In this document: positions 5,845 through 51,507 of the stretch, one piece after another
Layout: each line of letters opens with the position of its first letter
How positions within the stretch are numbered: position 1 is the stretch's first letter
Origin: a bacterium
GTDB taxonomy: Bacteria; UBA8248
Length of the DNA: 64,000 nt
Direction: 5' to 3'
Assembly (NCBI GenBank): GCA_963692865.2
Contig: OY843592.1
Span: forward strand, 1,280,001 to 1,344,000
The notes under the pieces: generated by a model
Seen by the model: the letters and a program-made list of their open reading frames with translations, nothing else
What the model was told of the DNA's origin: nothing
Databases searched by the model: none
Made by a program: the position numbers and the translations under genes

Positions 5845-5865
5845 AAGAATCCGTTTTTCACCACA

Positions 5866-12827: not shown

Positions 12828-12838
12828 ATTGTATACCC

Positions 12839-13150: not shown

Positions 13151-13209
13151 GTTTGATGACCTCCCGTAACGGAATATAAACGGCGAGGGCGCGCGAATCC
13201 ACCCCTCAA

Positions 13210-13487: not shown

Positions 13488-13648
13488 ACATCCGCCGGGT
13501 GCGGGCCGCATGAAGCGTTTTTGGCCTCATGGGCGCGCGCGGTTTTCGTTTCGCGCGAAATGTGGTGATATGGATTTTCCGTCCATGATGCGAGAGCGCT
13601 TTTATCGTTTTCCCATCTATTTTATCCAGGCGAGGGAGGCGGCGACGG

Positions 13649-34544: not shown

Positions 34545-34793
34545 TTCGCGCCGAAGCGCGCGGGCGGGGTTGTTGTCGCAGGGGACGTCGCCTTTACCCC
34601 TGTGGCAAGGGGGCCGGGTTGGTTTGGTAGGCCAGACTTATATGTCTGACATATCATGCGGCCCGTTCGGAGGCGGCGTGAAAAATCCGGGTCGCATGTA
34701 TGTGTGGGGCGATCCCGAGGAGGGAGCGCCACCTACAAGCCCCCTCCTCATTCAACGGCCCCCGCTTCGCTCCTGCAAACAAAGGAGGTCGTC

Positions 34794-35666: not shown

Positions 35667-35719
35667 GCCCCATGATCATCTTATTTTGACAAGAGCAACC
35701 ATTTTGTGAGGGATATTTT

Positions 35720-36577
35720 ATGCCGCTTCAATACCCCCTGGTGCATGTCGACGACGTAACGCCCGAGAAGATGGAGGAGAAGGAAGGCTGGGCGATCTCC
35801 GAGTTCCGGCTGCCCATCACGGGCGCGCACGGAAGCTCGACGACGGCCTTTCACTCCATCTTCCGGCCCGGCTCCACGCACGCGAAGCACTCACATTCCG
35901 AGTGCGAGGAAATCGCGGTCTACTTGAAGGGCCACGGCGTGGTCGGACAGGGCGAGGAGCGCGCCGAGGTGCGCGAGGGCCACTGCCGCCTCATGCCGAA
36001 AGGCTCGACGCATTTCTTCTATAACGAGACGAAAGACGAGGAGGCGATGGTGGTCGGCTTCTACCTCGGCGCGCCGAGCGTGGCGGGCACGGGCTATGAA
36101 TTTTGCGGCGACGTAACGCAAGCCGATCTCGACATGCCGCGCGAGGGCATTACCGACGGCATCCTGGTGCATCTGGACGACGTAAGACCCGAGAACATGA
36201 ACGAGGGGGAGGGCTGGTCGATCACCGACTTCAGGCTCCCCATCGGGCGGCGCAACGGTAGCGACACGACGCTGTTCCGCGCGCGCTTTTTTCCGAGCGC
36301 GGTGCACAAGAAGCACAGGCACGACAACTGCGAGGAAATCTACTACATCATCAGCGGCCACGGCCTGGCGGGGGCGGGTCCGGACCGCGTCGAGGTGCGC
36401 GGCGGGCACTTCCACTACATCCCCAGGGGGGTGGAGCACTGGCTCCACAACCTGAGCGATACCGATCCCATCGAGGCGGTGGGGATTTATATCGGAAGCG
36501 GGAGCGTGGAGGAGACCGGCTACGTCTACATGGGCGACGTGACCGAAGAGGACATCAAGGCGCGCACGCCGCTCTAG
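35720..36577 (+). CDS. Bicupin protein, paralog of the upstream gene
   Basis: KHSHSECEEI and KHRHDNCEEIYY cupin motifs; repeated LVH.DDV.PE.M...EGW.I..FRLPI. Confidence 0.88.
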   Translation: MPLQYPLVHVDDVTPEKMEEKEGWAISEFRLPITGAHGSSTTAFHSIFRPGSTHAKHSHSECEEIAVYLKGHGVVGQGEERAEVREGHCRLMPKGSTHFFYNETKDEEAMVVGFYLGAPSVAGTGYEFCGDVTQADLDMPREGITDGILVHLDDVRPENMNEGEGWSITDFRLPIGRRNGSDTTLFRARFFPSAVHKKHRHDNCEEIYYIISGHGLAGAGPDRVEVRGGHFHYIPRGVEHWLHNLSDTDPIEAVGIYIGSGSVEETGYVYMGDVTEEDIKARTPL

Positions 36578-37833: not shown

Positions 37834-39087
37834 CTATTCCCCGATATCGAACCCGAGTTTCGCGTGTGCTGTGCGCAGGGCGGACTCCACCTCTTCGGGC
37901 CGCTCCCCCTTGGCGAAGATGAAACCCAGGTATCTCTCTCCTTCCGGCAGCGGAACGACGCGGCCTCCGATGTGGATGGATATGTCGACCTCCACGATTC
38001 CGGGCACGGCCATGGCCTCCTCTTTGCCCTCGACCCCCTTCAGAACTCCCGCGCCGGGGATGGGAATCATCATGACGCCGGAAGCCTTTTTCTCGCGCTC
38101 CAATGATGGGGGCGCGACGCCCAGGGCTTGGGAGAGGATGAGGCATTCGAGCGACGCGCCGCCGCCGAACTCGAGCGCGCCTGAGCATTTCCCGCCGATG
38201 GCGCGGCTCGCCACGTCGATCACATGGATTTCGCCCGCGTCGTTGATTCTCAGTTCCGCGTGTAGGGGCCCCTCGCGCAGGCGGATGGCGTGGGCGGCGC
38301 GTATGGTTTCTTCACGGATTTTCTCTTGCATATCATCAGGAAGCCTGGAGGGCGTGACGTAGATGGTCTCCTCGAAAAAGGGGCCTTCCAAAGGATCCGG
38401 CTTGTCGAAGATGGCGAGAATGTGCGCCTCGCCGCGCACGACGAGGCCCTCCACCGCCACCTCGACGCCTTCGAGATAATCTTCCACCAGGATCATCTGC
38501 GCTTCCGCCCCGCCGCGCGCGATGGCCTCGGGGTCTTCCAATATCGCGCCGATACGGCGGTAGGCCTCAGAGAATTCAGCCGGGTCGTTCGCGCGAATCA
38601 CGCCCCGGCTCGCGGCGAGAAAGGTGGGTTTCAGCACACAGGGGTAGCTGATGCTTCCGGCGATTTCCTCCGGTTCCTCCTGTGCTGAGACCAGACGGAA
38701 CGAGGGCGAGGGCAGGCCTTCTTCCGAGAGCACCTTTCTCAGTTCGTATTTGCTCCGCGTCGTGCGGGAGGCCTCCACGGGGTGGTAAGGCAGCCCCAGC
38801 GCTTCGGCGGCCATCGCGCCCAGGATGAGCGTGTCGTCGTCCACCGGAGCGACCGCGTCGATGGGAAACTCCCTTGCGAACGATTGTATCGAGGCCGCGC
38901 CCGCTTCGGGTTCGTTGTAATCGAGCGTGATGGAGCCGCCCGGGTTCAGTTCGGCCAGCAGGTCGGGCCGGTCGGTTCCCACCGTGACGCGGACGCCCAT
39001 CTCCTGAGCCGCCGCCATGTAGGCGGAGGCGCGGTAGGTGGCCGTCGTCATGAGCAGGAGAACGCGCCTCCCGTCTTCAGGTGGCAT
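37834..39087 (-). CDS. ATP-grasp domain protein
   Basis: YPCVLKP..LAASRGVIRA, LVEDYL.G.EVAVEG, FDKPDPL.GPFFEETIY, HAELR. Confidence 0.9.
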   Translation of the reverse strand: MPPEDGRRVLLLMTTATYRASAYMAAAQEMGVRVTVGTDRPDLLAELNPGGSITLDYNEPEAGAASIQSFAREFPIDAVAPVDDDTLILGAMAAEALGLPYHPVEASRTTRSKYELRKVLSEEGLPSPSFRLVSAQEEPEEIAGSISYPCVLKPTFLAASRGVIRANDPAEFSEAYRRIGAILEDPEAIARGGAEAQMILVEDYLEGVEVAVEGLVVRGEAHILAIFDKPDPLEGPFFEETIYVTPSRLPDDMQEKIREETIRAAHAIRLREGPLHAELRINDAGEIHVIDVASRAIGGKCSGALEFGGGASLECLILSQALGVAPPSLEREKKASGVMMIPIPGAGVLKGVEGKEEAMAVPGIVEVDISIHIGGRVVPLPEGERYLGFIFAKGERPEEVESALRTAHAKLGFDIGE

Positions 39088-39856
39088 ACCATCCGCCGTC
39101 GACAAGGAGCGACGTGCCCGTGACGAGGCTGCTCGCCTCGGAAGCGAGGAAGATGGCCGGCCCCACCAGTTCGCTCATCTGCCCGAAGCGGCCCATGGGC
39201 GTTCTCTCGCAGATGGCGTCGTAGATGAGTTCGTCCTCCTGCAGGGAGGCGGTGAGTTCCGTTTCGATGAAGGTGGGGCAGATGGCGTTCACCTGGATGT
39301 TGTCCGTCGCGTACTCGCGGGCGAAAACGCGCGTCAGGCCGATGAGACCGCTCTTCGAGGACGTATAAGGCCCGTAGCATTGCTGACGGGGGTTTCTGAA
39401 AACGGACCATCCCATCAGGGAGGAGATGTTGATCACCTTGCCGCCGCCCGCTTTTTTCATCTCCTCGCCCGCGCGCCGCGTGATGAAGAAGATGCTCTTG
39501 AGATTGAGGTCGAGGATCCTGTCCCAGTCCGCCTCGCTGATGTCCCAGAGCGTTTTCCGCACGTTCGTGCCCGCGTTGTTCACCAGGATGGTGAGGCCGC
39601 CGAGTGCGGCGGCGGCTTCCACCACCATGCGCTCGGCGGATTCCATGTCGGTCACGTCGGCCTGGATGAGCGCGCACTTGCGGCCCATGTTCTCGATGGC
39701 TTCTTTCGCTTCGCCGGCGGGTTCGATGTCGATGTCCGCGATGACGACGTCCGCGCCCGCTGCTGCGAAGCCCTCGGCCAGCGTGCGCCCGATGCCGCGC
39801 GCGGCGCCCGTTACGAGCGCCTTTGCGCCGCTCAGATCGAAAAGGGATTGGCTCAT
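39077..39856 (-). CDS. Short-chain dehydrogenase/reductase
   Basis: TGAARGIG, NNAG, YTSSK, DGG. Confidence 0.93.
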   Translation of the reverse strand: MSQSLFDLSGAKALVTGAARGIGRTLAEGFAAAGADVVIADIDIEPAGEAKEAIENMGRKCALIQADVTDMESAERMVVEAAAALGGLTILVNNAGTNVRKTLWDISEADWDRILDLNLKSIFFITRRAGEEMKKAGGGKVINISSLMGWSVFRNPRQQCYGPYTSSKSGLIGLTRVFAREYATDNIQVNAICPTFIETELTASLQEDELIYDAICERTPMGRFGQMSELVGPAIFLASEASSLVTGTSLLVDGGWYAT

Positions 39857-40042: not shown

Positions 40043-41692
40043 ATGGCTAAGCCCAAGGATAACGGCGCGAAAAAAGAGCGCCCCGTCCGCGAGGCGGCCT
40101 ACAACTCGGGCAAGCCCGTGCCCGTGGTCTATGGGCCCGATGCGCCGGATGCCGCGTACCGGGAAAAGATAGGCTTACCGGGAGAATACCCCTACACGCG
40201 GGGCATCTACCCCACGATGTACCGGGGCTCGCTTTGGACGATGCGCCAGTACGCGGGTTTTTCCACCTCGGCGGACACCAACGCGCGGTTCCACTTTCTG
40301 CTCGGAAACGGCCAGACGGGCCTCTCGATGGCCTACGATCTCCCCACGCAGCTCGGTCTGGATTCTGACGACGAAGCCGCGCAGGACGACGTGGGCCGTT
40401 TGGGCGTCGCCGTGGACACAGCCGAGGACATGGCGGACGTTTTTGACGGTATACCGCTCGACAGGGTGAGCGTCTCGCACACCATCAACTCGACCGCCGC
40501 CATCATCCAGGCGTTCTGGCTCATCGCCGCCGAGCGGCAGGGGGTCGCGCTGGAGAAGCTGCGCGGCACCTTTCAGAACGACATGCTCAAGGAATACATC
40601 GGCCGGGGCACGTGGATATTCCCCCCGAGACCCTCCATGCGCCTCGTGGCGGACATCATCGAGTACAACGCGAAGCGCTGCCCGCGCGTGAACGCCGTCA
40701 GCGTATCAGCCACCCACATCGCCGAAACGGGCGCCACTCTCGCGCAGGACGTCGCCTTCCCGATCCTGAACGCGCTGGCCTACATCCGGGAACTCACCGG
40801 GCGCGGCCTCCACGTGGACGACTTCGTGCCCACGATGTCGTTTCACCTCTCGGTCGGCGGCGGCGTAGGGCCGTTCAACCTGCTCGAATCGGTCGGCAAG
40901 CTGCGCGCGGCGCGGCGCATCTGGGCGCGCACGATGAAGGATGAATACGGCGCGAAAAACCCCAGGACCATGCAGCTCAAATTCTCGACCGGCAACTGCG
41001 GCAGCCGCATGGCGGCGCGCGAACCGCTCAACAACATCGTGCGCCAGACGCTCTACACCCTGGCCGCCGTGCTGGGCGGCACGCGCTCGGTCAACATGGC
41101 GTGTTTCGACGAGGCCTTCGAGATTCCCTCGGACGAGTCCATCCGCACGGCGCTCAGAATCCAGCAGGTCATCGCGCACGAGAGCGGCGTGGCCGACACC
41201 GTGGATCCGCTGGCTGGCGGCTATGCGCTGGAGGCCGTGACGGATCAGGTGGAAGAGGAGATTCAGGCCATCGTGGACGATTACGAATCGCGCGGCGGAA
41301 TCGTCCCCTTCATCGAGAGCGGGGAGATTCAAAGGCTTCTCGCTAGGCAGGCCTACGAGCACCAGCGCAAGATCGCCTCGGGCGAGCAGGTGTGGGTGGG
41401 GGTGAACAGGTTCACCTCAGAAGATGAAGACCGCATGAGCGCGGGCGAGGGCCTCTACGAGGCGGACGATTCCGTGCTCGAAAAACAAATGGAGCGCCTC
41501 GCGCGGGTGAAGGCCGCCCGCGATGCGGGCGAGGTGGCTGATCAACTGGAAAAGCTGGCGAGTGCGTGCGAGTCGAAGGAGAACCTCGTGCCTTATCTCA
41601 TGGACGCCGCCCGCGCGCGCCTCACGGTGGGGGAGATGACCGGGGTGATGCGCGGCGCGTTCGGCGCCTACGTGGAGCCGTCGGTCGTTTGA
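40043..41692 (+). CDS. B12-dependent acyl-CoA mutase, substrate-binding (large) subunit, methylmalonyl-CoA mutase family
   Basis: PGEYPYTRG.YPTMY, WTMRQYAGF, DLPTQ.G.DSD, QNDMLKEY, DPLAG; AGGAG RBS. Confidence 0.93.
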   Translation: MAKPKDNGAKKERPVREAAYNSGKPVPVVYGPDAPDAAYREKIGLPGEYPYTRGIYPTMYRGSLWTMRQYAGFSTSADTNARFHFLLGNGQTGLSMAYDLPTQLGLDSDDEAAQDDVGRLGVAVDTAEDMADVFDGIPLDRVSVSHTINSTAAIIQAFWLIAAERQGVALEKLRGTFQNDMLKEYIGRGTWIFPPRPSMRLVADIIEYNAKRCPRVNAVSVSATHIAETGATLAQDVAFPILNALAYIRELTGRGLHVDDFVPTMSFHLSVGGGVGPFNLLESVGKLRAARRIWARTMKDEYGAKNPRTMQLKFSTGNCGSRMAAREPLNNIVRQTLYTLAAVLGGTRSVNMACFDEAFEIPSDESIRTALRIQQVIAHESGVADTVDPLAGGYALEAVTDQVEEEIQAIVDDYESRGGIVPFIESGEIQRLLARQAYEHQRKIASGEQVWVGVNRFTSEDEDRMSAGEGLYEADDSVLEKQMERLARVKAARDAGEVADQLEKLASACESKENLVPYLMDAARARLTVGEMTGVMRGAFGAYVEPSVV

Positions 41693-42105
41693 TGGCGAAC
41701 GGGACCAAGCGCATACGGGTGCTGATGGCGAAGCCGGGCCTCGACGGGCACGACCGCGGGGTCAAGGTCATCATCCACGCGCTGAGAGACGCAGGCATGG
41801 AGGTGATCTACTCAGGCCTCAGGCAGACGGTCGAGCAGATCGTCTCCGTCGCGATTCAGGAGAACGTGGACGTGATCGGCCTGAGCATCCTCTCGGGTTC
41901 CTACATGGGGATCGCGCGCAGGCTCATGGCGAGAATCAGGGAAGAGGAACTCGATGATTGCCTCGTCATTCTGGGCGGGAACATCCTGGAGCGCGACGTG
42001 GCGGGGCTGAAATCCTTAGGAATAGCCGAAGTGTTCAACCACCATGCGGAGATGGCCGAAGTCGTCTCCTACATCAGGAACAACGCGGCAGCCGGCGCGG
42101 CCTGA
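41692..42105 (+). CDS. Cobalamin-binding (small) subunit of acyl-CoA mutase
   Basis: KPGLDGHDRG (DxHxxG), GLSILSG, LGG. Confidence 0.95.
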   Translation: MANGTKRIRVLMAKPGLDGHDRGVKVIIHALRDAGMEVIYSGLRQTVEQIVSVAIQENVDVIGLSILSGSYMGIARRLMARIREEELDDCLVILGGNILERDVAGLKSLGIAEVFNHHAEMAEVVSYIRNNAAAGAA

Positions 42106-42136
42106 CGGCGGCGCATCTATCGTGGGGGAGTCAGTT

Positions 42137-43330
42137 TTGGAAAAGCCGCTGGAGGGCGTGCGCATACTCGATCTTTCCGCCCTGCTCGCAGGCCCTTACG
42201 GCAGCATGGTGCTGGCCGATCTGGGCGCGGACGTCATCAAGATAGAGGCGCCGGGCAGGGGCGACCTCGTCCGCACCATGCCCCCGCACTACGTCGGCGA
42301 GACGAGCGCCTACTTCATCGCGCTCAACAGGAACAAGCGGGGTATTTTCCTGAACTTGAAGGACGAGGAGGGCTACCGCGTCTTCTGCGAGATGGTGAAG
42401 CGCTCCGACGTCGTTTACGACAACTACCGCCCCGGCGTCCTGGAGCGGCTCGGCGCGGACTACGAAACGCTTAAAGTAGTGAACCCGCGCATCATCAGCG
42501 CCTCCGTCACCGGCTACGGCCTCACAGGCCCCCAGAAGGACAAGCCCGCGCTCGACCTCATCATCCAGGGGCGCGGCGGCATCATGAGCTTCACCGGCGA
42601 GCCGGGCAGGCCGCCCGTGCGCCTGGGCGTTCCCATGGGGGACATGGGAGGCGGCCTGTTCGCCGCTCACGGCATTCTGGCGGCGCTCTACAAGCGCGAG
42701 CGGACGGGCGTCGGCCAGAAGGTGGACGTTTCGCTCCTCGACAGCCAGTTGTACCTCGCGAGCTACCGCGCGCAGTACTACCTGACGGCGGGCGACGTGG
42801 CGGAGCCGATGGGCACGGGCCACGCCTCCGCCGTTCCCATCGGCGCGTACCAGTGCGGCGACGGCAAGTGGCTCGTGCTCGACGCCATACTGGATCATTT
42901 CTTCGAGAGCCTCTGCGACGCGCTGGGCCATCCCGAGTGGAGGGACGACCCGAGGATGAAGGATCGCCCCACCCGCCTCGATAACCGCGAATACGTGGAC
43001 GCCAAACTCTCGGAAGTCTACAAGACGAACACCGCCGCGCACTGGATAGAGCGAATCGATGCGCACGGCGTGCCCTGCGGGCCGATTCAGACCATCGACG
43101 AGGCGCTGAACGACCCCCAGACGCGCTCGCGCGAGATGGTCGTGGAGATGACGCACCCCGAACTCGGCGATATGAACACGTTCAACACGCCCATCAAGAT
43201 GGAGGGCACGTGGGGCTCCACTCCCGCGCCGCCTCCCCTGATGGGTGAGCACACCGAAGAGGTGCTCAGGGAAGTGCTCGATCTGGGCGATGCGGAAATC
43301 GAAAGGTTAAAAGCGCGCAAGGCGATTTGA
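42137..43330 (+). CDS. Family III CoA-transferase (CaiB/BaiF)
   Basis: LAGPY..LADLGADVIKIE, NRNKR, NYRPG, catalytic Asp in PMGDMGGG. Confidence 0.93.
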   Translation: MEKPLEGVRILDLSALLAGPYGSMVLADLGADVIKIEAPGRGDLVRTMPPHYVGETSAYFIALNRNKRGIFLNLKDEEGYRVFCEMVKRSDVVYDNYRPGVLERLGADYETLKVVNPRIISASVTGYGLTGPQKDKPALDLIIQGRGGIMSFTGEPGRPPVRLGVPMGDMGGGLFAAHGILAALYKRERTGVGQKVDVSLLDSQLYLASYRAQYYLTAGDVAEPMGTGHASAVPIGAYQCGDGKWLVLDAILDHFFESLCDALGHPEWRDDPRMKDRPTRLDNREYVDAKLSEVYKTNTAAHWIERIDAHGVPCGPIQTIDEALNDPQTRSREMVVEMTHPELGDMNTFNTPIKMEGTWGSTPAPPPLMGEHTEEVLREVLDLGDAEIERLKARKAI

Positions 43331-43341
43331 GGGGGCTTGTC

Positions 43342-44130
43342 ATGTTCCATGACAAGAAGGCTTTCGTGTTCGACCTGGAAGGGGTTTTCTTCGCGGGAGA
43401 CGAGGTGATGCCCGGCGGATCGGAGTTGATGCGGGCCGTCAAGGCGAGGAACCTCCCCCATCGCTTCATCACGAACATCAGCCGCAGTACGGCGGCGGAG
43501 ATTCGCGCCCACATGGCGGGTATCGGCCTGGACCCGGGGGAGAACCTCATCGTGGCCGCGCTGGACCGGGTCGGCTCGTTTTTGAGGAAGAACTTCGGAT
43601 CGGGCAGAGCGTACGTGCTGGGGACGGATTCGCTGAAACGCGCGGTCGCGTCGGGCGGTTTCCAGATTTTGGGGCATGACGAGGAAGATAGGGCCGACGT
43701 CGTGCTCGTCGGGCTGGATGAAGCACTTACCTACGAGACGCTGAGCGCGGCAGCGCGTGCGGTGAGCCGGGGCGCGCGTTTCGTCGCCATGAACCCCGAC
43801 GTGCGCCTGCCGAGGGAGGACGGTTCGTTTTCACTCGGCGGGGGCGCCATCATGGCGTCCGTGCGGGCGGCGGCGGGCCGGGAGCCGGTGTTTTTCGGAA
43901 AGCCCGAGCCTTTCCTGTTCGAAGAAGCGCTGGAGGAGCTGGGCGTGGAGGCGCGCCACGCCGTCATGGTGGGGGACAACCTGAGGACGGACATCGCGGG
44001 CGGCCAGAGGGTGGGAATGGCCACCGTGTGGGTGAACCGCTGGGGCGTGATTGCCGGGGACCCGGATGTGACGGCGGACCTGGAAGTCAAGACGCTCGAT
44101 GAACTGATGCCGCATCTTCCGGGCGGCTAG
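43342..44130 (+). CDS. HAD-IIA hydrolase (NagD-like)
   Basis: FDLEGV, ITN, MNPD, GKP, MVGDNL.TDI.GG. Confidence 0.88.
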   Translation: MFHDKKAFVFDLEGVFFAGDEVMPGGSELMRAVKARNLPHRFITNISRSTAAEIRAHMAGIGLDPGENLIVAALDRVGSFLRKNFGSGRAYVLGTDSLKRAVASGGFQILGHDEEDRADVVLVGLDEALTYETLSAAARAVSRGARFVAMNPDVRLPREDGSFSLGGGAIMASVRAAAGREPVFFGKPEPFLFEEALEELGVEARHAVMVGDNLRTDIAGGQRVGMATVWVNRWGVIAGDPDVTADLEVKTLDELMPHLPGG

Positions 44131-44153
44131 GATTTTGAGATAGAGAGGACGAC

Positions 44154-44909
44154 ATGGCGCTGGTGGAATACGAGGTGAGGGACAAGCTGGCCTGCATCAC
44201 GCTGAACAGGCCGGAGAAGATGAACGCCATCAACCACGAGATGAGCGAGCGCATCTTCGCGCTGTTCGACGAGATGGAGCGCGACCCCGGCGTGTGGGGC
44301 TGCCTGATCACGGGGAACGGAAAGGCCTTTTCGAGCGGGCACGACCTCACCGAACCGCCGCCCGAAGATAGGGAAGTCAAACCCGTCTCGGACCTCTATC
44401 AGGTCATCATGGAGTTGTACAAGCCCTGCTTCGCGGCGATCAACGGGTTCTGCCTGGCGGGCGGGGCGGGCATCGCGCTTTCCTGCGACGTGCGCGTGAT
44501 GGCCGAGGAAACGCAACTCGGCTGGCCCCAGGTCGTGCGCGGCATCTCCTCCGTCAGCGGGCCGATTCTCCTGGCGAAGCTGCTGCCCTTCAATCTCGCG
44601 CACTATCACCTGTTCACCGGCGAGCCCATCGACGCGGAGACCGCGCTGAGGCTCGGCCTCGTGAACAAGGTGGTTCCCAGGGAGAACGTCTTAGAGGAGA
44701 CCGAGAAGATCGCGCGACGGGTGCTGGCGAATGCGCCTTTGGCGGTGCGCGCCATCAAGGAGATCACCGTCCGCGCGCGCGACATGACGATGGAAGACGC
44801 CCTGCGCTTCGGCGACGTGATCCTGAAACGCCTCCTCGAGACCGAGGACGCCGAAGAGGGCGTACGGGCCTTCAAGGAGAAGCGGCCACCGAATTTCAAG
44901 GGAAGGTAA
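44154..44909 (+). CDS. Enoyl-CoA hydratase/isomerase (crotonase) family protein
   Basis: TLNRPEKMNAI, AFSSGHDL, AAINGFCLAGG, EGVRAFKEKR.P.FKG. Confidence 0.92.
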   Translation: MALVEYEVRDKLACITLNRPEKMNAINHEMSERIFALFDEMERDPGVWGCLITGNGKAFSSGHDLTEPPPEDREVKPVSDLYQVIMELYKPCFAAINGFCLAGGAGIALSCDVRVMAEETQLGWPQVVRGISSVSGPILLAKLLPFNLAHYHLFTGEPIDAETALRLGLVNKVVPRENVLEETEKIARRVLANAPLAVRAIKEITVRARDMTMEDALRFGDVILKRLLETEDAEEGVRAFKEKRPPNFKGR

Positions 44910-44942
44910 GGTATGGGGGGCCATGTCGTCCATACATATTCC

Positions 44943-45018
44943 GTAGGGACAGGCCCCCGCGCCTGTCCTCATGAGAAACAACCACAGGGGCAGGACAACC
45001 CAAAAGGGTTGTCCCTAC
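44943..45018. repeat. Inverted REP pair
   Basis: GTAGGGACAGGCCCCCGCGCCTGTCC ... GGACAACCCAAAAGGGTTGTCCCTAC. Confidence 0.8.
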
Positions 45019-45129
45019 ATTCCTTCGGGGTCACCCTGTTTGTCCCGCACCCGCCTTGCGCGCTTGAGCGAGTCGTTGCATAACGAATTCTCCTGATTCT
45101 TCGCTCCTTGCACATGAAAGGAGGCCGCG

Positions 45130-46290
45130 GTGGATTTCGACCTCACCGACTCTCAGCGCGATATCCGGCAAAAGGCCCGTGAAATCGCCACGAACCAGAT
45201 AGCGCATAAGGCGGCGCATTGGGACGAGACCGAGGAATACCCCTGGGAGAACGCGCGAATCCTGGCCGAGGCCGGCTTCATGGGCATGAACATCCCGGAG
45301 GAATTCGGCGGACCCGAGCGCCCGCTCATCGAGGCCGTCCTGGTGGTCGAGGAGATGGCGAAGGTATGCGGCATCACGGGGCGCATCGTGGTGGACAGCA
45401 ACATGGGCGTGGTGGGGGCGATCATCAAATACGGAACCGAGGCGCAGAAGAAAAAATATCTGCCCATGGTGTTGAACGGCGATAAGCCCGCCATCGTCAT
45501 CACAGAGCCCGAGGCGGGGAGCGCCGCCACCGACATGACGACGCGGGCCGTGCTCGACGGCGATGAATATATCCTGAACGGCAAGAAGAAATGGATTACC
45601 GGCGCGGGCGTCTCCCACATCAACCTCGTGTTCGCCCGCGTGGTGCACGGCGGGGACGAGCAGGGAATCGGCGCGCTGATCGTGGAGTTGGGGGCGGAGG
45701 GTTTCCGCATCGGAGAGCGCAACTACATGATGGGCTTGCGGGGAATCCCCGAGAGCGAGGAGATTTTCGAGAACTGCCGCGTGCCGCAGGAAAACCTGGT
45801 GGCGGTGGGCTTCGGCCGCCTGATGGCCGCCTACAACGCGCAGCGCGTGGGAGCCGGCACGGTGGCCTTGGGACTCGCCGAGGGCGCCTTTGCGCAGGCG
45901 GTGGAATACGCAAAAAAACGCCACCAGTTCGGCCGCCCGATATCCGAATTCCAGGGGCTTCAGTGGATTCTGGCGGATGCGCGCATACAGCTCGACGCCG
46001 CGCGGCTCCTGCTCCACCGGGCGGCGGTGCAGGAAGACCCGAAGACGGGCTTTCCCGACATGCACCTCGCGGCGGTCGCCAAGACGTTTTCGGCGGAAGC
46101 CTCGATCAGGGTGACGAACGACGCGCTCCAGATTTTCGGAGCCGCGGGCTATTCGCGCGATCTGCCTATCGAGCGCATGGCGCGCGACGTGCGGATGTTC
46201 ACCATCGGCGGCGGCACCACCCAGGCGCAGCGAAACGTGATCGCCTCGGGTATTTTCGGGAGAAAATTCTCGCAGCGGCGGGGAGAGTGA
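45130..46290 (+). CDS. Acyl-CoA dehydrogenase-fold protein, 3-sulfinopropionyl-CoA desulfinase-like
   Basis: GRIVVDSNMG, GDKPAIVITEP.AGS, LMAAYNAQRVGAGTVA, RDVRMFTIGGGT; no catalytic Glu at either ACAD position. Confidence 0.8.
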   Translation: MDFDLTDSQRDIRQKAREIATNQIAHKAAHWDETEEYPWENARILAEAGFMGMNIPEEFGGPERPLIEAVLVVEEMAKVCGITGRIVVDSNMGVVGAIIKYGTEAQKKKYLPMVLNGDKPAIVITEPEAGSAATDMTTRAVLDGDEYILNGKKKWITGAGVSHINLVFARVVHGGDEQGIGALIVELGAEGFRIGERNYMMGLRGIPESEEIFENCRVPQENLVAVGFGRLMAAYNAQRVGAGTVALGLAEGAFAQAVEYAKKRHQFGRPISEFQGLQWILADARIQLDAARLLLHRAAVQEDPKTGFPDMHLAAVAKTFSAEASIRVTNDALQIFGAAGYSRDLPIERMARDVRMFTIGGGTTQAQRNVIASGIFGRKFSQRRGE

Positions 46291-46400: not shown

Positions 46401-46745
46401 GTGATGGCTATCTTTACGTTGCAGGAAGCCCGCGATCTTCTGCCGCGGGTCAAGGAAGTGACGCAGCACTACCACGACGTCGTCGAGGAGTTGCGCGAAG
46501 AGTTGGAAAGCCCTGAAGGGTCGGACGATATCAAGCGCATCGAGGGACTCATGAACGACGCGGTCGGCGAGTGGGTGAAGGCCGTCAGAAACTTGGGCGT
46601 GGAAGTCAAAGGCTTGTGGCTGGCGGATTTCGATTCAGGAGACGGCTATTACTACTGCTGGAAACTCGGCGAGGACGACATCGAACATTTCCACGGCTAC
46701 GAAGCGGGGTTCGCAGGCCGCCGTCCCATTTCGTTGCTGGAGTAA
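46401..46745 (+). CDS. DUF2203 family protein
   Basis: FTLQEA..LLP.V, GVEVKGLWLADF, YYCWKLGE..I.HFH....GFAGRRPI. Confidence 0.85.
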   Translation: MMAIFTLQEARDLLPRVKEVTQHYHDVVEELREELESPEGSDDIKRIEGLMNDAVGEWVKAVRNLGVEVKGLWLADFDSGDGYYYCWKLGEDDIEHFHGYEAGFAGRRPISLLE

Positions 46746-46792: not shown

Positions 46793-48016
46793 CTAGCCGT
46801 ATTGCAGGATCATGCCCGTCAGGCCCAGTTCGATGCAGCCGGCCACCTCGATGCAGCGAGAGTTCGCAGGCGGCATGACCACGCCGGTGATGCCCTCCCG
46901 GTAGAACCGCTCGAAAGGATAGCGCCGCGCGATGGAGCGGCCCCCCACGAGCCGCATCGCGTGCTGCACCACCTTGGCGCAGACCTCACACGAGACGTAT
47001 TTCGACTGCATGACGGTCTTCACCGTGTCCTGGTTCGCCATGCCGTCTCCCTGTTCCTTTACGTGACTCGCCTCGTAAAGCAGCATCCGCGCGGCCCTGA
47101 GTTCCGAGCTCAACTCGCCGATGTTGCTCTGGTACATCTCGTTGTGGCTCAAGGGTTCGGGGTTGGGCGGGTACTGCGTCGTCCGCACGTACTCCGCCAG
47201 ATGATTGTAGGCGCCTTCCGCGATGCCTAGATAGGCGGCGGAGAAGCCCAGGTGGAACATGGTGATGTCGATTTTCCCCAGCGCGCCGATGAAGTTCTCG
47301 CCCCCGAGGATGTCCTCGTTCGGCACGAAGGTGTCCTCGAAGATGATGTCGTCGCTCGCCGTTCCCCGCATCGACATGGTGTCCCACACCACCTTCACGG
47401 ATGAACCCGCGTAATCCTTGTGGAGCACGGCGGTCATGATGGCCTCGGCGGCGGTCTTTTTCCCCTCCAGGAACCCGGTCGTGAAGTAATAGTCGGCGTG
47501 CTCGCCTATCGAGGCGGAAATCTTCCTGCCGCTCAGCCGGTAGCCGCCCTCGACGGGAGAGAAGATGGTCTTGAGCGTCACGAGGTGCCGGAAGCTCATG
47601 CCGCGCTCCGCCGTGACGGAGGAGAACAGCTTGCCGTTCTCCACGATGTCTGGGAGCACGCGCTTTTTCTGCTCCTCGTTCGCGAGGGCGAAGAACAGGC
47701 TCACGCAGGTCTGGTGCATGTTCCAGGTCAGCGCGGTGGAAGCGCACGCCTTGCCCAGTTCGGCGAGCGCCATGTTGTAGGTGAGGGAATTGGCGCCCGA
47801 ACCGCCCCATTCCTCGGGGATGCACAGGGCGTTCAGGCCCGCGTCGACGAGCAGCTTGTAGTTCTCGGTGGGGAAGCGGCCCTCGCGGTCTATCTCGGCC
47901 GCAAGTTCTTCCATCTGGGGCGCGAGGGCTTTGATTTTGTCGATGATTTCCTTGTCGTATTTCAGATCCATGAGTGTTTCATAAGACTCACTCGCCGCGG
48001 TTGTGGGACCCATCAT
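46793..48016 (-). CDS. Acyl-CoA dehydrogenase-fold flavoprotein (atypical; flavin monooxygenase-like branch)
   Basis: DREGRFP, CASTAL.WNMH, LSGRK, WDTMSMRGTASDD, ERFYRE; AGGAGG RBS. Confidence 0.85.
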   Translation of the reverse strand: MMGPTTAASESYETLMDLKYDKEIIDKIKALAPQMEELAAEIDREGRFPTENYKLLVDAGLNALCIPEEWGGSGANSLTYNMALAELGKACASTALTWNMHQTCVSLFFALANEEQKKRVLPDIVENGKLFSSVTAERGMSFRHLVTLKTIFSPVEGGYRLSGRKISASIGEHADYYFTTGFLEGKKTAAEAIMTAVLHKDYAGSSVKVVWDTMSMRGTASDDIIFEDTFVPNEDILGGENFIGALGKIDITMFHLGFSAAYLGIAEGAYNHLAEYVRTTQYPPNPEPLSHNEMYQSNIGELSSELRAARMLLYEASHVKEQGDGMANQDTVKTVMQSKYVSCEVCAKVVQHAMRLVGGRSIARRYPFERFYREGITGVVMPPANSRCIEVAGCIELGLTGMILQYG

Positions 48017-48386
48017 CTTTCCTCCTGTTCATCGAGGCGAATAGCGTCGGCCTCGACATCAGACGGCAATTCGAATCAGGGGTCGAGCGGGAGGACATGC
48101 CCGACGCATCTCGTGTTCAACTCATCGCAATCTCCATCCATTGACGTTCCTGACCGTCCTGCTCCACCGGCTCGATTTTGAGAGGCGAACGCGCCGTATG
48201 GCGAAAGGCGCACCACTCCACTAGGGGCAGACGGCCATCATACCAGATACCTCTCCGAGTTTGACATCGCTTCTTCGAGGCATGTAATCTCCGCTGGGTT
48301 TTCATACTTTAACCCATTGAGATAATTCTTGCACCAGCCGTGAATTGGTTTTGGTTTCGTTGCTCGTGTTTTTCGGGAGATTTTCC

Positions 48387-49388
48387 ATGCCTCCCCGCAT
48401 ACTCGTCTCCACCACGCCGTTCGGTGAGATCGACCCCAAGCCCGTCGAGATGCTTGAAAGCGCAGGGGTGGAGTACGTGCGCAACACGCTGGGCAAACGC
48501 CCGAACGAGGATGAATTCGCCGAAATGATTCGCGATGGTTTCGACGCCGTCATCGCGGGTCTGGAGCCCTTCACGCCGAGAATACTGGATTTGGCTGCCG
48601 GGCTGCGGTTCATATCGCGCGCCACGGTGGGTCTCGAGACGGTGGATTTGAACGCCGCGCGCGAGAGAAACATTCTCGTGGCGAACACGCCCGGGGCCAA
48701 CTCGGAAGCCGTGGCGGAACTGACGCTCAGCCACCTGCTCACGCTCCTGCGCGGCGTGCATCGCTCGCACAACGCGCTCCTGCGCGGCGAGTGGCTCCAG
48801 TTCATGGGCCGCACGCTCGATGAGATTACCCTGGGCGTCATCGGCGTGGGCCGCATCGGCAAGCGGGTGATCCGCCACGTATCGGGCTTCGGCGCCAGGA
48901 TCATCGCGAACGATCTCGCGCCCGATCTGGAATTCGGCGAGCGCTACGGCGTGGAATGGACCGAAAAGGAAGAAATCTACCGGCGCGCCGACGCCGTCTC
49001 CCTCCACGTTCCCGCCACGCCGAAGACGATTCACATGGTGGGTGAAGACGAGATCGCGATGATGAAAAAAGGCGCGTTCCTCATCAACACGGCGCGCGGC
49101 GTCGTCGTGGACGATGAGGCGCTGGCGCGCGCGCTTCGCTCGGGCCGGCTGGGGGGCGCAGGCATAGACGTTTTTCCCGAAGAACCCTACCGGGGCGTCC
49201 TGACGGAAGCGCCCAACTGCATTCTCACCGCGCACCTGGGCGCGCGGGCGCGCTCCTCTCGACTGCAGATGGAACTGGACGCGACGGAAAACGTCCTGTG
49301 CTTTCTGGCGGGCGAGCCGGTTCCGGGCCTCGTGCCGGATGAGGAATATGAGATGCAGCGCATCATCACCGCCGACGCGAACGCCTGA
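48387..49388 (+). CDS. D-2-hydroxyacid dehydrogenase (phosphoglycerate dehydrogenase-like)
   Basis: NTPGANSEAVAE, GVGRIG, LINTARG, DVFPEEP, TAHLG. Confidence 0.92.
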   Translation: MPPRILVSTTPFGEIDPKPVEMLESAGVEYVRNTLGKRPNEDEFAEMIRDGFDAVIAGLEPFTPRILDLAAGLRFISRATVGLETVDLNAARERNILVANTPGANSEAVAELTLSHLLTLLRGVHRSHNALLRGEWLQFMGRTLDEITLGVIGVGRIGKRVIRHVSGFGARIIANDLAPDLEFGERYGVEWTEKEEIYRRADAVSLHVPATPKTIHMVGEDEIAMMKKGAFLINTARGVVVDDEALARALRSGRLGGAGIDVFPEEPYRGVLTEAPNCILTAHLGARARSSRLQMELDATENVLCFLAGEPVPGLVPDEEYEMQRIITADANA

Positions 49389-49426
49389 ACCGGGAATTAT
49401 ATCCTCCCAAACTTTGGAGTCATTCG

Positions 49427-50191
49427 ATGCCCAAGACACCTGATTATTTCGCGGGAAAAACCCTCATCGTCACCGGCGCGGCCAGCGGCATCGGCAAGGA
49501 GACCTCGCTCATTTTCGGGCGCGAAGGGGCCAACGTCTTCTGCGCGGACCTGGACGAGGAAGGCGCCGCCGAGGTCGCCGAGCGCGTTACGGAAAACGGC
49601 GGCCGGGGCGTTCACATGAAGGCGGACGTCACCTCGCGCGAGGAGGCGTTCGCCATGACGAGGCGCGCAAAGGAGCGTTTCGGCCGCGTCGATTTTTCGC
49701 TCAACTCCGCGGGGGCGGCTCTCAGGCGTTCAGATTTCTTAGGCATCGAAGACGACCTTTGGGAGCGGACGTTCGATTTGAACGTCAAGGGCGTTTTCTA
49801 CTGCATGCAGGCCGCGATTCCCGAAATGCTCGAAAACGGCGGAGGCGTCATCGTCAACATCGGGAGCATGGCGCACAAGCGCGGAGGCCCCGGCCACTCG
49901 GTGCACTACGCGGCGGCGAAGGGTGCGGTGGTGACGATGAGCATGGGTGTGGGCCGCGAGTTCGCGGACAGGGGCATCCGGTGCATGTCCATATCGCCGG
50001 GGCCCATCGACACGCCGTTTCACGACGTCTCCTCGGAGGCGCTCAAGGAGTCGATGCGCGCTCAGATACCGATGGGCCGCTTCGGCACGCCGGAGGAGAT
50101 CGGCGAGCTGGTGCTGTTCATGTGCTCGGATGCGTGCGCGTTCATGACGGCGGACACCGTGTACGTGAACGGCGGCGGGGGCTGGAAGTAG
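49427..50191 (+). CDS. Short-chain dehydrogenase/reductase
   Basis: TGAASGIG, NSAG, YAAAK, PGPIDT. Confidence 0.93.
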   Translation: MPKTPDYFAGKTLIVTGAASGIGKETSLIFGREGANVFCADLDEEGAAEVAERVTENGGRGVHMKADVTSREEAFAMTRRAKERFGRVDFSLNSAGAALRRSDFLGIEDDLWERTFDLNVKGVFYCMQAAIPEMLENGGGVIVNIGSMAHKRGGPGHSVHYAAAKGAVVTMSMGVGREFADRGIRCMSISPGPIDTPFHDVSSEALKESMRAQIPMGRFGTPEEIGELVLFMCSDACAFMTADTVYVNGGGGWK

Positions 50192-50442: not shown

Positions 50443-51507
50443 TTAAGGGGATGTCTCGGTTTCTTCATCCTTCGCGGCGCCCTCCCAAAGCTCCCGCTGG
50501 GCCCCTTTTGGCAGCGCGGCGCCAAGGTGTGAATACGCCGCCGAGGGCGCACGCCTGCCGCCGCGCGTCCTCTGCACGAAGCCCGCCCGCAGCAGGAACG
50601 GCTCCACCATGTCCACGAGGGTGTCCGTCTCCTCGTTCATGGTGGCGGCGATGGCCTCCACCCCCACCGGACCGCCGCCGTACTGGTCGATGATCGTCCT
50701 CAGATACTTCCTGTCCAGCCCGTCGAGACCCAGTTCGTCCACGCCCTCCATGGCGAGCGCCTCGCGCGTCTTGGAGAGGCTGATGGCGCCGTCGCCGCGC
50801 GCCTGGCAGTAATCGCGCGTCCAGAGCAGGAGCCGGTTCGCCGTGCGCGGCGTGCCCCGGCTTCTCCGGGCGAGTTCGCTCGCAGCTTCTTCTTCGATAG
50901 GGGCTTCGAGGCGAGCCGCGCTCCTCAGGAGTATCTGCACGAGCTCGTCTTCTGAATAAAAATCCACGTGGTAGACGAGATAGAAGCGCTCCCTCAAGGC
51001 GGCGGTCAGGGCGCCGGGGCGCGTCGTGGCGCCCACGGCCGTGAATATCTTGAGCGGGAAGTTGATGGTGCGGGCCATGGGGCCTCGGTCGACGACGAAG
51101 TCCACGCGGTAGTCCTCCATCGCGGGGTAGAGGAATTCCTCGACCGCGCTGGGCATCCGGTGGATCTCGTCGATGAAGAGCACGTCGCCCTGCGTGAGGC
51201 CCGTGAGGATTCCCATGAGGTCCGCGGGCCTCGATAGAGAGGGGCCGGAGGTCTTGACGAGGCGCGTTCCCATCTCTTCGGAGATGATGTGTGAAAGCGT
51301 GGTTTTCCCCAGACCCGGCGGCCCGTGGAAGAGAATGTGGCCCAGGGGTTCGTTCCTCTTGCGCGAGGCTTCGAGCGCAATCCGCAGCTTGGCCACGAGA
51401 TCGGTCTGGCCCACGTATTCTTCGAGCCTCGAGGGTCTGAGCGAGGTGAAGGTTTGCTCCTCCGCCGGACTCGCCGCCTTGGCGCTCACGCGCCGCTCGA
51501 TGACCAT
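50443..51507 (-). CDS. ruvB: Holliday junction branch migration helicase RuvB
   Basis: LRP..L.EYVGQ, GPPGLGKTT, FIDEIHR, SRGTPR, GGPVG, EPFL. Confidence 0.98.
   Translation of the reverse strand: MVIERRVSAKAASPAEEQTFTSLRPSRLEEYVGQTDLVAKLRIALEASRKRNEPLGHILFHGPPGLGKTTLSHIISEEMGTRLVKTSGPSLSRPADLMGILTGLTQGDVLFIDEIHRMPSAVEEFLYPAMEDYRVDFVVDRGPMARTINFPLKIFTAVGATTRPGALTAALRERFYLVYHVDFYSEDELVQILLRSAARLEAPIEEEAASELARRSRGTPRTANRLLLWTRDYCQARGDGAISLSKTREALAMEGVDELGLDGLDRKYLRTIIDQYGGGPVGVEAIAATMNEETDTLVDMVEPFLLRAGFVQRTRGGRRAPSAAYSHLGAALPKGAQRELWEGAAKDEETETSP

What the first reader, a model, noticed from the sequence alone, without database searches (positions are those of the whole stretch)
40043..46290. 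B12 mutase operon linked to a sulfinopropionyl-CoA desulfinase-like gene: candidate new organosulfur pathway
Seen: split mutase, family III CoA-transferase, HAD, crotonase, then a co-oriented ACAD-fold gene. That gene has Arg85 (GRIVV), Gln238 (YNAQRVG) and MFTIGGGT, with no catalytic Glu. Known (recalled): 3-sulfinopropionyl-CoA desulfinase is an ACAD-fold enzyme with Arg84/Gln246 and works with a family III succinyl-CoA:3-sulfinopropionate CoA-transferase; 3-sulfinopropionate is a succinate analogue. Inference: either the mutase regenerates succinyl-CoA from the propionyl-CoA product, or, given its altered pocket, it rearranges a branched sulfino/sulfo-acyl-CoA (methylmalonyl analogue) into the linear desulfinase substrate. 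The latter would be a new B12 reaction.
Basis: partly seen in the sequence, partly recalled or inferred. Interest (0 to 1): 0.78.

Follow-up and report, generated by a model that had tools for sequence, protein, structure and literature searches.

The report
B12 mutase cassette beside a desulfinase

Summary
Observation confirmed. On the + strand, 40043-46290 encodes a split MCM-family mutase, a class III CoA-transferase, a HAD-IIA hydrolase, a crotonase and an ACAD-fold protein with the desulfinase signature.

The ACAD-fold protein is a close relative of 3-sulfinopropionyl-CoA desulfinase. It scores 551.7 bits on NF042439 (cut-off 600; next family 347.6). It lies in an uncharacterised sister clade of the characterised proteobacterial type.

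The mutase belongs to a discrete, widespread, unstudied clade. It keeps the carboxylate-binding Tyr and Arg, but three pocket motifs differ from the canonical ones.

Its conserved partners are the B12 subunit and the CoA-transferase. This holds in 8 of 8 metagenome loci. 0 of 7 Thermodesulfobacteriota genomes carrying such a mutase have a desulfinase.

Mutase-desulfinase adjacency is confined to one genus, where each gene also occurs without the other. ECH, Acd and the genes down to RuvB fill a variable region that one other genus (G039) lacks.

A canonical MCM lies elsewhere in the genome.

Verdict: two juxtaposed modules. A B12 rearrangement of a sulfino-acyl-CoA is unsupported. The cassette's substrate is the open question.

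The parts
37834..39105 (-). ATP-grasp (L-amino-acid-ligase type) gene, transcribed divergently from the cassette and syntenic with it across the family.
   Evidence: PF13535 123.6 bits and LAL_C2. Present beside the cassette in L089, L095, L096, L097 and L112.
39077..39856 (-). SDR oxidoreductase, divergent neighbour of the mutase.
   Evidence: PF13561 207.8 bits. 70-75% identical and adjacent in other genera.
40043..41692 (+). Large (substrate-binding) subunit of a split acyl-CoA mutase from a distinct clade. It has SATH/STGN/NMAC where canonical enzymes have SGYH/HxQT/HTN.
   Evidence: PF01642 578 bits. Best solved match is HCM 4r3u, 453.9 bits. Signature table.
41692..42105 (+). Small B12-binding subunit of the mutase, translationally coupled to the large subunit (TGATG).
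   Evidence: PF02310 78 bits; TIGR00640 126.9 bits. Junction read.
42122..43330 (+). Class III (CaiB/BaiF) CoA-transferase, the conserved partner of this mutase clade.
   Evidence: PF02515 441 bits. Closest solved structure is succinate-hydroxymethylglutarate CoA-transferase, 289 bits. Follows mutS in 8 of 8 loci at 55-58% mutase identity.
43342..44130 (+). HAD-IIA (NagD/YutF-like) hydrolase. It is the last gene of the unit conserved within the bacterial family. Its role is unknown.
   Evidence: TIGR01460 144 bits. YutF 131 bits. Follows the CoA-transferase in L089, L097 and L098 and lies near it in L095.
44154..44909 (+). Crotonase-family enoyl-CoA hydratase. It is a genus-specific addition that is decaying in some relatives.
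   Evidence: PF00378 177.7 bits. Only a fragment remains in G024 and remnants in G022; absent in G034 and in other genera.
44910..45129 (.). Structured spacer with two GC-rich hairpins. Its length varies between close relatives, and one relative carries an IS element here. A conserved block of about 40 nt lies just upstream of Acd.
   Evidence: Fold of -64.6 kcal/mol, z -4.12. Alignment of relatives. A 404-aa transposase-like ORF sits in the same spacer of G025 (my reading of its translation, no family search). The simple promoter and terminator scan flagged nothing here.
45130..46290 (+). ACAD-fold protein of the 3-sulfinopropionyl-CoA desulfinase family (sister clade). [quoted passage not shown]
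   Evidence: NF042439 551.7 bits. 5af7 421.5 bits. Arg85, Gln238 and GGG. Tree.
46401..46745 (+). DUF2203 protein, part of the genus-specific block.
   Evidence: PF09969 84.8 bits.
46793..48016 (-). Divergent ACAD-fold protein (type-2 C-terminal domain). It is convergent with Acd and also lies beside Acd in G022 and G037.
   Evidence: Weak matches to AcrC (161 bits), SfnB (120) and DszC (114).
48345..50191 (+). D-2-hydroxyacid dehydrogenase (48345-49388) and an SDR (49427-50191). They end the variable block in front of RuvB (50443-51507, minus strand).
   Evidence: In G039 the cassette's HAD gene is followed directly by RuvA and YebC.

Best explanation
Two independent catabolic modules lie side by side.

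Module A (40043-44130) is a self-contained cassette.
- A class III CoA-transferase activates a dicarboxylic acid.
- A split adenosylcobalamin mutase then rearranges its carbon skeleton.
- The mutase keeps the MCM residues that hold a free carboxylate (the Tyr of TMY, the Arg of IGRGTW) and the catalytic His.
- Three bulky pocket residues are replaced by small ones: Tyr to Thr, Gln to Gly and Asn to Ala.
- I therefore infer a 2-substituted succinyl-CoA to substituted malonyl-CoA interconversion, of the IaaGH or ethylmalonyl-CoA mutase kind.
- The transferase would pass CoA from the product to the next substrate molecule, so the cassette needs no other dedicated enzyme.

Module B (45130-46290) is a 3-sulfinopropionyl-CoA desulfinase. 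It sits behind its own structured spacer and probably has its own promoter (inferred; no promoter was found). It releases sulfite and propionyl-CoA.
- 3-Sulfinopropionate would come from a thiol dioxygenase encoded elsewhere.
- It would be activated by one of the genome's roughly 18 class III transferases or by succinyl-CoA synthetase.
- Propionyl-CoA would go through the carboxylase and the canonical MCM encoded elsewhere.

Shown: gene identities, signatures and the distribution of linkage. Inferred: substrates, CoA recycling and separate transcription.
For: Independence of the two modules:
- mutL, mutS and the CoA-transferase are conserved in 7 genomes of 4 other genera of the family, none with an adjacent Acd.
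- The same trio is found in 8 of 8 metagenome loci at 55-58% mutase identity.
- It is also found in 5 of 7 Thermodesulfobacteriota loci. 0 of those 7 genomes has an Acd-family match at E<=1e-100. The same search gives 8.9e-166 for the real gene and 7e-86 for the next ACAD in the own genome.
- G024 keeps Acd but lacks mutL, mutS and the CoA-transferase. G034 keeps the cassette but lacks ECH, Acd and ACAD2.
- G039 goes straight from HAD to RuvA and YebC.
- G025 has an IS element in the ECH-Acd spacer. The spacer folds with z -4.1.

Mutase:
- The three-site signature is present in 37 of 37 relatives at >=52% identity and in 0 of 60 at <=49%.
- The own genome also has a canonical-signature MCM, an HCM-signature paralogue and a third type.
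- Precedent: the class III transferase IaaL works with the B12 mutase IaaGH on phenylsuccinyl- and benzylmalonyl-CoA (PMC8360864; discussion and passages read).
- Distant cassettes carry a TAXI-TRAP transporter and a PrpB-like lyase.

Desulfinase:
-.
- The pathway is described in PMC5373536 and PMC6370202 (passages read).
- The genome has a CDO-family gene (38.3 bits), four sulfite-oxidase-family genes and a carboxyltransferase.
Against: - In 16 of 22 other genomes of the genus, the cassette and Acd sit 2.8-5.0 kb apart on one strand. Co-regulation or substrate sharing in this genus is therefore not excluded.
- 3-Sulfinopropionate is a succinate analogue that a dicarboxylate CoA-transferase might accept.
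- An earlier scan note (e1-3186127) reports a cassette of this kind near a desulfinase in an unrelated genome. That would be a second adjacency, which I could not inspect.
- Acd scores below NCBI's equivalog cut-off (551.7 against 600), and no member of its sister clade has been assayed.
- The simple scan found no promoter or terminator in the spacer, and no RNA data exist.
- The roles I assign to the mutase pocket residues rest on recalled MCM structural literature, not on a paper I could read.
- No IaaG or ECM sequence was available for comparison.
Confidence: 0.6

Rival explanations
1. A 3-sulfinopropionate cycle within this genus.
- The cassette CoA-transferase acts as succinyl-CoA:3-sulfinopropionate transferase.
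- Acd releases sulfite.
- Propionyl-CoA is carboxylated.
- The cassette mutase, working as an MCM, regenerates succinyl-CoA.
For: - The cassette and Acd are adjacent on one strand in 16 of 22 other genomes of the genus.
- The mutase keeps the Tyr, Arg and His needed for methylmalonyl-CoA.
- A canonical-signature MCM lies within 10 kb of Acd in 5 of 77 distant loci. Linking propionyl-CoA disposal to Acd therefore has precedent.
- The closest solved transferase uses succinyl-CoA.
Against: - The genome already has a canonical-signature MCM at C1:1426k.
- The cassette clade has three non-canonical pocket motifs.
- The cassette occurs without Acd in 5 family genomes and in 7 of 7 Thermodesulfobacteriota genomes.
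- G024 keeps Acd after losing the mutase and the transferase.
- The window transferase is only the fifth-best own-genome match to canonical Acd-adjacent transferases.
Confidence: 0.12
2. A new B12 reaction. The mutase would rearrange a branched sulfino- or sulfo-acyl-CoA, such as 2-sulfinopropionyl-CoA, into 3-sulfinopropionyl-CoA for Acd.
For: - Adjacency within the genus.
- The non-canonical pocket.
- A sulfinate could in principle occupy the carboxylate site held by the retained Arg and Tyr (inference).
Against: - The same pocket signature is found in 37 of 37 clade members. These include lineages with no Acd in the genome and family genomes without Acd.
- The changed residues are not the ones that hold the acid group (recalled structure knowledge).
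- I know of no natural source of 2-sulfinopropionate.
- The distant cassettes sit with dicarboxylate or tricarboxylate transporters and a PrpB-like lyase.
Confidence: 0.03
3. An IaaL/IaaGH/IaaF-like pathway.
- The transferase and mutase make a substituted malonyl-CoA.
- The Glu-less ACAD, with its GGG motif, decarboxylates it oxidatively to an enoyl-CoA.
- The crotonase hydrates that enoyl-CoA.
For: - The gene content parallels IaaL, IaaGH and IaaF.
- IaaF orthologues carry GGG in place of YEG, as this protein does (PMC8360864).
- A crotonase sits between the cassette and the ACAD.
Against: - The paper describes IaaF as an isolated branch separate from the desulfinase branch. The window protein sits firmly in the desulfinase family (421.5 bits to 5af7, 551.7 bits on NF042439).
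- GGG is the norm in that family, in 155 of 157 members. These include proteobacterial members next to a canonical transferase, so the motif does not discriminate.
- Arg85 and Gln238 are invariant.
- ECH and Acd are not conserved with the cassette.
Confidence: 0.05
4. The cassette is only a variant methylmalonyl-CoA mutase unit for interconverting succinate and propionate or methylmalonate. This would be the logic of the E. coli Sbm operon (recalled), with no new substrate.
For: - The carboxylate-binding Tyr and Arg, the His and the FDEA Glu are retained.
- The transferase is related to succinyl-CoA-dependent dicarboxylate transferases.
- The PrpB-like lyase in distant cassettes would yield succinate.
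Against: - The three-site change is fixed across the whole clade while canonical MCMs keep their motifs.
- A canonical MCM coexists in this genome.
Confidence: 0.2

Closest known systems
3-Sulfinopropionyl-CoA desulfinase Acd/AcdA of Advenella mimigardefordensis DPN7 and Variovorax paradoxus TBEA6 (PDB 5af7/5ahs; NCBIfam NF042439)
   Same: - ACAD fold.
- Arg and Gln at the aligned positions.
- Catalytic Glu replaced (xGG).
- By far the best family and structure match.
- A crotonase neighbour also occurs in the TBEA6 cluster (PMC6370202).
   Different: - Scores 551.7 bits, below the 600-bit cut-off. Six proteobacterial-type homologues score 663-682.
- Falls in a sister clade (23 rows, support 95) apart from the 71-row clade that holds every member with a nearby transferase.
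- GGG instead of AGG.
- No adjacent mdo and no orthologous act.
IaaGH benzylmalonyl-/phenylsuccinyl-CoA mutase with the class III transferase IaaL (Aromatoleum aromaticum; PMC8360864)
   Same: A B12 acyl-CoA mutase is paired with a class III CoA-transferase that acts on a substituted succinate. The carboxylate is retained and room is needed for a bulky substituent.
   Different: - No Iaa sequence was available, so relatedness is untested.
- The cassette loci lack the other iaa genes.
- The substrate here is unknown.
Methylmalonyl-CoA mutase (P. shermanii 1req, human 2xij)
   Same: - Same Pfam family.
- Tyr, Arg, His and the FDEA Glu are retained.
- DxHxxG B12 motif.
   Different: - Split subunits.
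- SATH, STGN and NMAC where MCM has SGYH, HxQT and HTN.
- A 5-residue insertion.
- A canonical paralogue exists in the same genome.
2-Hydroxyisobutyryl-CoA mutase HcmAB (PDB 4r3u)
   Same: Best solved-structure match (453.9 bits). Same split architecture.
   Different: HCM has RQIAGF, DFDMPT and AQKEY where the window has RQYAGF, AYDLPT and GRGTW. The window enzyme therefore keeps the carboxylate ligands that HCM lacks. A separate HCM-signature paralogue lies at C1:2483k.
Ethylmalonyl-CoA mutase and alkylmalonyl-CoA mutases of warhead biosynthesis (Erb 2008, citation only; PMC5719088, passages read)
   Same: Mutases that retain the carboxylate and accept a larger alkyl group.
   Different: Those enzymes work with crotonyl-CoA carboxylase/reductase, not with a CoA-transferase.

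Membership tests
3-Sulfinopropionyl-CoA desulfinase (NF042439 equivalog) | ACAD three-domain fold | tested here: met
   PF02771, PF02770 and PF00441 all matched.
3-Sulfinopropionyl-CoA desulfinase (NF042439 equivalog) | The catalytic Glu of the YEG motif is absent | tested here: met
   The window has IGGGT where 5af7 has IAGGT. 155 of 157 family members have GGG and 2 have AGG.
3-Sulfinopropionyl-CoA desulfinase (NF042439 equivalog) | Arg84 and Gln246 of AcdDPN7 (roles recalled; the structure paper is not held) | tested here: met
   Arg85 and Gln238 align with them. Both are invariant in 157 of 157 members.
3-Sulfinopropionyl-CoA desulfinase (NF042439 equivalog) | Score at or above the curated cut-off (600 bits) | tested here: not met
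   551.7 bits. Sister-clade relatives score 536.7-574.1 and proteobacterial-type homologues 663-682.
3-Sulfinopropionyl-CoA desulfinase (NF042439 equivalog) | Gene context act-acd-mdo | tested here: not met
   The nearby transferase belongs to the mutase cassette. No CDO-family gene lies beside Acd; the genome's only hit is at C1:847650.
3-Sulfinopropionyl-CoA desulfinase (NF042439 equivalog) | Sulfite release from 3-sulfinopropionyl-CoA without FAD redox turnover | not testable with these tools
   Needs an enzyme assay.
Adenosylcobalamin acyl-CoA mutase (PF01642 plus PF02310) | Substrate barrel domain plus a B12-binding domain with DxHxxG | tested here: met
   578 and 78 bits. DGHDRG in mutS.
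Canonical methylmalonyl-CoA mutase | Pocket motifs TMY, the Arg in R-x-T-[YW], SGYH, HxQT and HTN (residue roles recalled) | tested here: not met
   Tyr, Arg and His are kept, but the window has SATH, STGN and NMAC. 60 of 60 relatives at <=49% identity keep GYH and HxQT.
2-Hydroxyisobutyryl-CoA mutase / isobutyryl-CoA mutase | Loss of the carboxylate ligands: Ile or Phe for Tyr89, Gln for Arg207, and Asp117 in HCM (roles recalled) | tested here: not met
   The window has RQYAGF and GRGTW where HCM has RQIAGF and AQKEY.
IaaGH-type arylsuccinyl-CoA mutase | Sequence membership in the IaaG/IaaH clade and an iaa operon context | tested here: inconclusive
   No IaaG or IaaH sequence was obtainable. 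Apart from the transferase, no iaa-like neighbours were seen in 15 distant cassette loci.
[quoted passage not shown] | Orthology to the transferase encoded directly upstream of canonical acd | tested here: not met
   36-40% identity to six such transferases. It ranks fifth in the own genome, and the best match is C1:1615387-1616520 at 40-46%.

The most novel reading that the evidence does not exclude
The mutase clade marked by Thr, Gly and Ala at three pocket positions, together with its dedicated class III CoA-transferase, may catalyse a carbon-skeleton rearrangement not yet described. The substrate would be a bulky 2-substituted succinate or malonate, handled in a two-enzyme cycle that is neutral in CoA. 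In this genus the neighbouring crotonase and desulfinase may have been recruited to process a sulfur-bearing product of that cycle.
Probability: 0.3. Interest if true: 0.65.

Novelty: new variant of a known kind. Interest (0 to 1): 0.4.

Why it matters
Few substrate specificities of acyl-CoA mutases are known: MCM, ECM, ICM/IcmF, HCM, PCM and IaaGH (list recalled). Each new one has opened a pathway or an engineering route.

This locus belongs to a discrete, widespread clade with a fixed three-site pocket change and a dedicated CoA-transferase. It was found in this bacterial family, in 7 of 301 Thermodesulfobacteriota genomes and in many metagenome contigs. My paper searches found no description of it.

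The desulfinase-like gene extends the known sulfite-releasing enzyme into a sister clade. Source labels for that clade include Nitrospinae, Tectomicrobia and SAR324. This bears on who degrades 3-mercaptopropionate-derived sulfur.

The headline claim, a B12 reaction on a sulfino-acyl-CoA, is not supported.

Tried and rejected
- RNA evidence for co-transcription: no RNA holder was listed for 40043-46290, and no reads were laid.
- Rfam: no family matched in the whole window.
- Simple promoter and terminator scan: nothing in the ECH-Acd spacer.
- Papers not held:
  - Erb 2008.
  - Kurteva-Yaneva 2015.
  - Schürmann 2015 and 2013.
  - Residue roles in MCM, HCM and Acd are therefore recalled.
- A search for Tyr89/Arg207/His244/Tyr243 papers gave nothing useful.
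- PMC11599936 gave no pocket description in its main text. Its supplementary figure on first-shell residues could not be seen.
- My first regular-expression motif count for Acd failed. An alignment-based count replaced it.
- ThDP enzyme link: G037 has a ThDP enzyme beside Acd. The window's genome has only 28-33% identical paralogues, and these lie elsewhere, so the link was dropped for this locus.
- Own-scan look-ups by place and by sequence returned nothing.
- Structure prediction was not run. The tools return no coordinates from which a pocket could be measured.

Full report
**What is there**

The + strand of 40043-46290 carries six intact genes.
- mutL, 40043-41692: PF01642, 578 bits.
- mutS, 41692-42105: B12-binding domain with a DGHDRG motif. 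Its start overlaps the mutL stop as TGATG.
- A class III CoA-transferase: likely GTG start at 42122, PF02515, 441 bits.
- A HAD-IIA hydrolase: likely ATG start at 43342.
- A crotonase, 44154-44909.
- An ACAD-fold gene, 45130-46290, after a 220-nt spacer.

An SDR and an ATP-grasp ligase are transcribed divergently upstream. DUF2203, a second divergent ACAD-fold gene, a 2-hydroxyacid dehydrogenase, an SDR and then RuvB and RuvA follow downstream.

**The ACAD-fold gene**

Its best NCBIfam match is the 3-sulfinopropanoyl-CoA desulfinase equivalog NF042439, at 551.7 bits. The cut-off is 600, and the next family (AcrC) scores 347.6. Its best solved relative is the Advenella desulfinase 5af7, at 421.5 bits against 285.4 for the next chain. 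Arg85, Gln238 and the Glu-less IGGGT align with that enzyme's GRITV, YNAQRVG and IAGGT.

I aligned 157 family members. Arg and Gln are invariant in all of them. 155 carry GGG and 2 carry AGG. The GGG motif, which benzylmalonyl-CoA dehydrogenase IaaF also has (PMC8360864), therefore does not discriminate.

Six proteobacterial-type homologues score 663-682 bits. The window protein and four relatives of its own and the basal branches score 536.7-574.1.

A FastTree of 109 rows places the window protein in a 23-row clade with support 95. This clade is separate from a 71-row clade with support 100. The larger clade holds all 16 members that have a class III transferase within about 3 kb; in 14 of them it lies directly upstream.

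The gene is thus a member of the desulfinase family in the broad sense. It belongs to an unassayed sister branch.

The genome offers the rest of the known route described in PMC5373536 and PMC6370202 (passages read):
- a weak CDO-family hit (38.3 bits);
- four sulfite-oxidase-family genes;
- a carboxyltransferase at C1:1618414;
- a canonical MCM.

**The mutase**

The genome has four PF01642 genes. By motif they are as follows.
- One at C1:1426k is canonical MCM.
- One at C1:2483k has the HCM signature.
- One at C1:3212k is a third type.
- The window copy is the most divergent, at 577.9 bits.

Compared with human MCM and HCM, the window enzyme keeps several residues. These are the TMY Tyr, RQYAGF, the Arg of IGRGTW, the His and FDEA. 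It has SATH for SGYH, STGN for HCQT and NMAC for HTNS, plus a 5-residue insertion.

From recalled MCM structural work, the kept residues hold the substrate carboxylate and the thioester. The changed ones line the pocket around the migrating carbon and the adenosyl group. In each case a large side chain becomes a small one.

This signature defines a clade. It is present in 37 of 37 relatives at >=52% identity. It is absent from all 60 relatives at <=49% identity, which keep GYH and H-x-Q-T.

**What travels with what**

Within the class (51 genomes):
- The orthologous mutase (>=69% identity) occurs in 20 of 22 other genomes of the genus and in 7 genomes of 4 other genera.
- Acd occurs in 19 of 22 genomes of the genus and in 2 genomes outside it.
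- In the genus, the two lie 2.8-5.0 kb apart in 16 of 22 genomes.
- Two more genomes have them on different small contigs.
- G034 and G028 have the cassette without Acd. In G028 the contig ends right after the transferase.
- G024 has Acd without the mutase. G020 has neither.

Locus maps show the following.
- G024 lacks mutL, mutS and the transferase but keeps HAD, an ECH fragment and Acd.
- G022 has only ECH remnants.
- G034 has a DNA methylase in place of ECH, Acd and ACAD2.

Outside the genus:
- mutL, mutS, the transferase and HAD, with the divergent SDR and ATP-grasp genes, are conserved.
- In G039 the HAD gene is followed directly by RuvA and YebC. Its Acd is of the proteobacterial type and lies 2.9 Mb away.
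- In G037 the Acd sits on another contig behind an amidase and an ABC transporter, beside a ThDP enzyme and the ACAD2 orthologue.

ECH to SDR_dn is therefore a variable block inserted between the cassette and ruvB.

**Further afield**

Of 80 genome loci found with an Acd alignment, 3 are close relatives of the window (93-95% identical Acd) with the full cluster. Of the other 77, none has a cassette-type mutase. Five have a mutase within 10 kb. In each of the five, every pocket motif that my patterns matched was canonical. HxQT matched in four and SGYH in two, one locus showing both.

Of the metagenome loci found with the mutase alignment, all 8 at 55-58% identity with enough downstream sequence have mutS followed by a transferase. 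That transferase is 53-56% identical to the window's.

In a sample of 301 Thermodesulfobacteriota genomes, 7 have the cassette mutase. None of the 7 has an Acd-family match at E<=1e-100. In the own genome this threshold separates the real gene (8.9e-166) from the next ACAD (7e-86).

In 6 of 15 distant cassette loci, the trio is followed by a small unknown protein and a TAXI-TRAP binding protein. Four of these also have the fused membrane component, and three have a PrpB-like lyase (332.6 bits; cut-off 354.4). This points to uptake and processing of a di- or tricarboxylic acid.

**The spacer**

The spacer 44910-45129 folds into two GC-rich hairpins (-64.6 kcal/mol, z -4.12). Its length and content differ between close relatives. 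A conserved block lies just upstream of Acd. In G025 the spacer holds a 404-aa ORF that I judge transposase-like from its translation; no family search was run on it.

The simple scans found no sigma-70 promoter or T-tailed terminator there. No RNA data are available. Separate transcription is therefore inferred, not shown.

**The transferase**

Its closest solved relative is succinate-hydroxymethylglutarate CoA-transferase (289 bits). NCBIfam places it equally near the oxalate, glutarate and mesaconate transferases, all below their cut-offs.

Against six transferases encoded directly upstream of canonical acd genes it is 36-40% identical. It ranks fifth among about 18 paralogues in the genome.

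**Reading**

The simplest account is two modules.

Module A is a cassette in which a dicarboxylate CoA-transferase and a carboxylate-retaining mutase with an enlarged pocket interconvert a substituted succinyl-CoA and a substituted malonyl-CoA. The only characterised parallel I found is IaaL with IaaGH (PMC8360864). I propose, as inference, that the transferase recycles CoA from product to substrate. That would explain why nothing else is universally conserved with the pair.

Module B is a desulfinase with the known chemistry.

The rivals cannot be excluded without enzymology. They are a genus-specific 3-sulfinopropionate cycle, a sulfino-acyl-CoA mutase, an IaaF-like decarboxylating dehydrogenase and a plain MCM variant. 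The distribution data argue against the first three.

That is a lead that the adjacency may recur. It is not independent support.

Noticed in passing
G000 C1:1426200-1427732, C1:2483259-2484803 and C1:3212332-3213864 (outside the window): The genome has four acyl-CoA mutase large subunits with different pocket signatures. One is canonical MCM and one has the HCM signature (RQIAGF, DFDMPT, AQKEF). A third, undescribed type has AGAH, GVVC and FTCA at the three sites. The fourth is the window copy.
   Followed up: partly
window 46793-48016 (minus strand): A divergent ACAD-fold protein with weak matches to SfnB and DszC-type sulfur oxygenases as well as to AcrC. It is convergent with Acd and also lies beside Acd in G022 and G037. 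It may be the desulfinase's real partner.
   Followed up: partly
L093 (G037) 9367-14194: In another genus, the sister-clade Acd sits between an amidase with an Opp-type ABC transporter and a ThDP-dependent enzyme. This echoes an earlier scan note on a thiamine-enzyme partner of desulfinases.
   Followed up: partly
L105, L106, L187, L190, L191 and L192: Distant cassettes form a recurrent operon: mutL, mutS, a class III transferase, an unknown 137-143 aa protein, a TAXI-TRAP transporter and a PrpB-like lyase.
   Followed up: partly
window 614-2217 and 8506-10100: Two low-GC islands (47-52% GC against about 64% elsewhere). Each encodes an AAA_21/AAA_15 ATPase (360 and 363 aa) followed by a small ORF with no family match (174 and 168 aa). 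They look like duplicated defence-type gene pairs.
   Followed up: no
L095 (G013) 4288-5859: In one genus, a 523-aa FAD_binding_2 flavoprotein (fumarate-reductase-like) is inserted between the cassette's transferase and its HAD gene.
   Followed up: no
G000 C1:1615387-1616520 and C1:1618414-1619874: The own-genome class III transferase most similar to canonical Acd-adjacent transferases (40-46% identity) lies about 2 kb from the genome's only carboxyltransferase (PCC-beta-like) gene.
   Followed up: no
window 34656-36577: Two adjacent bicupin genes with no NCBIfam match. They are syntenic with the cassette in several genera.
   Followed up: no
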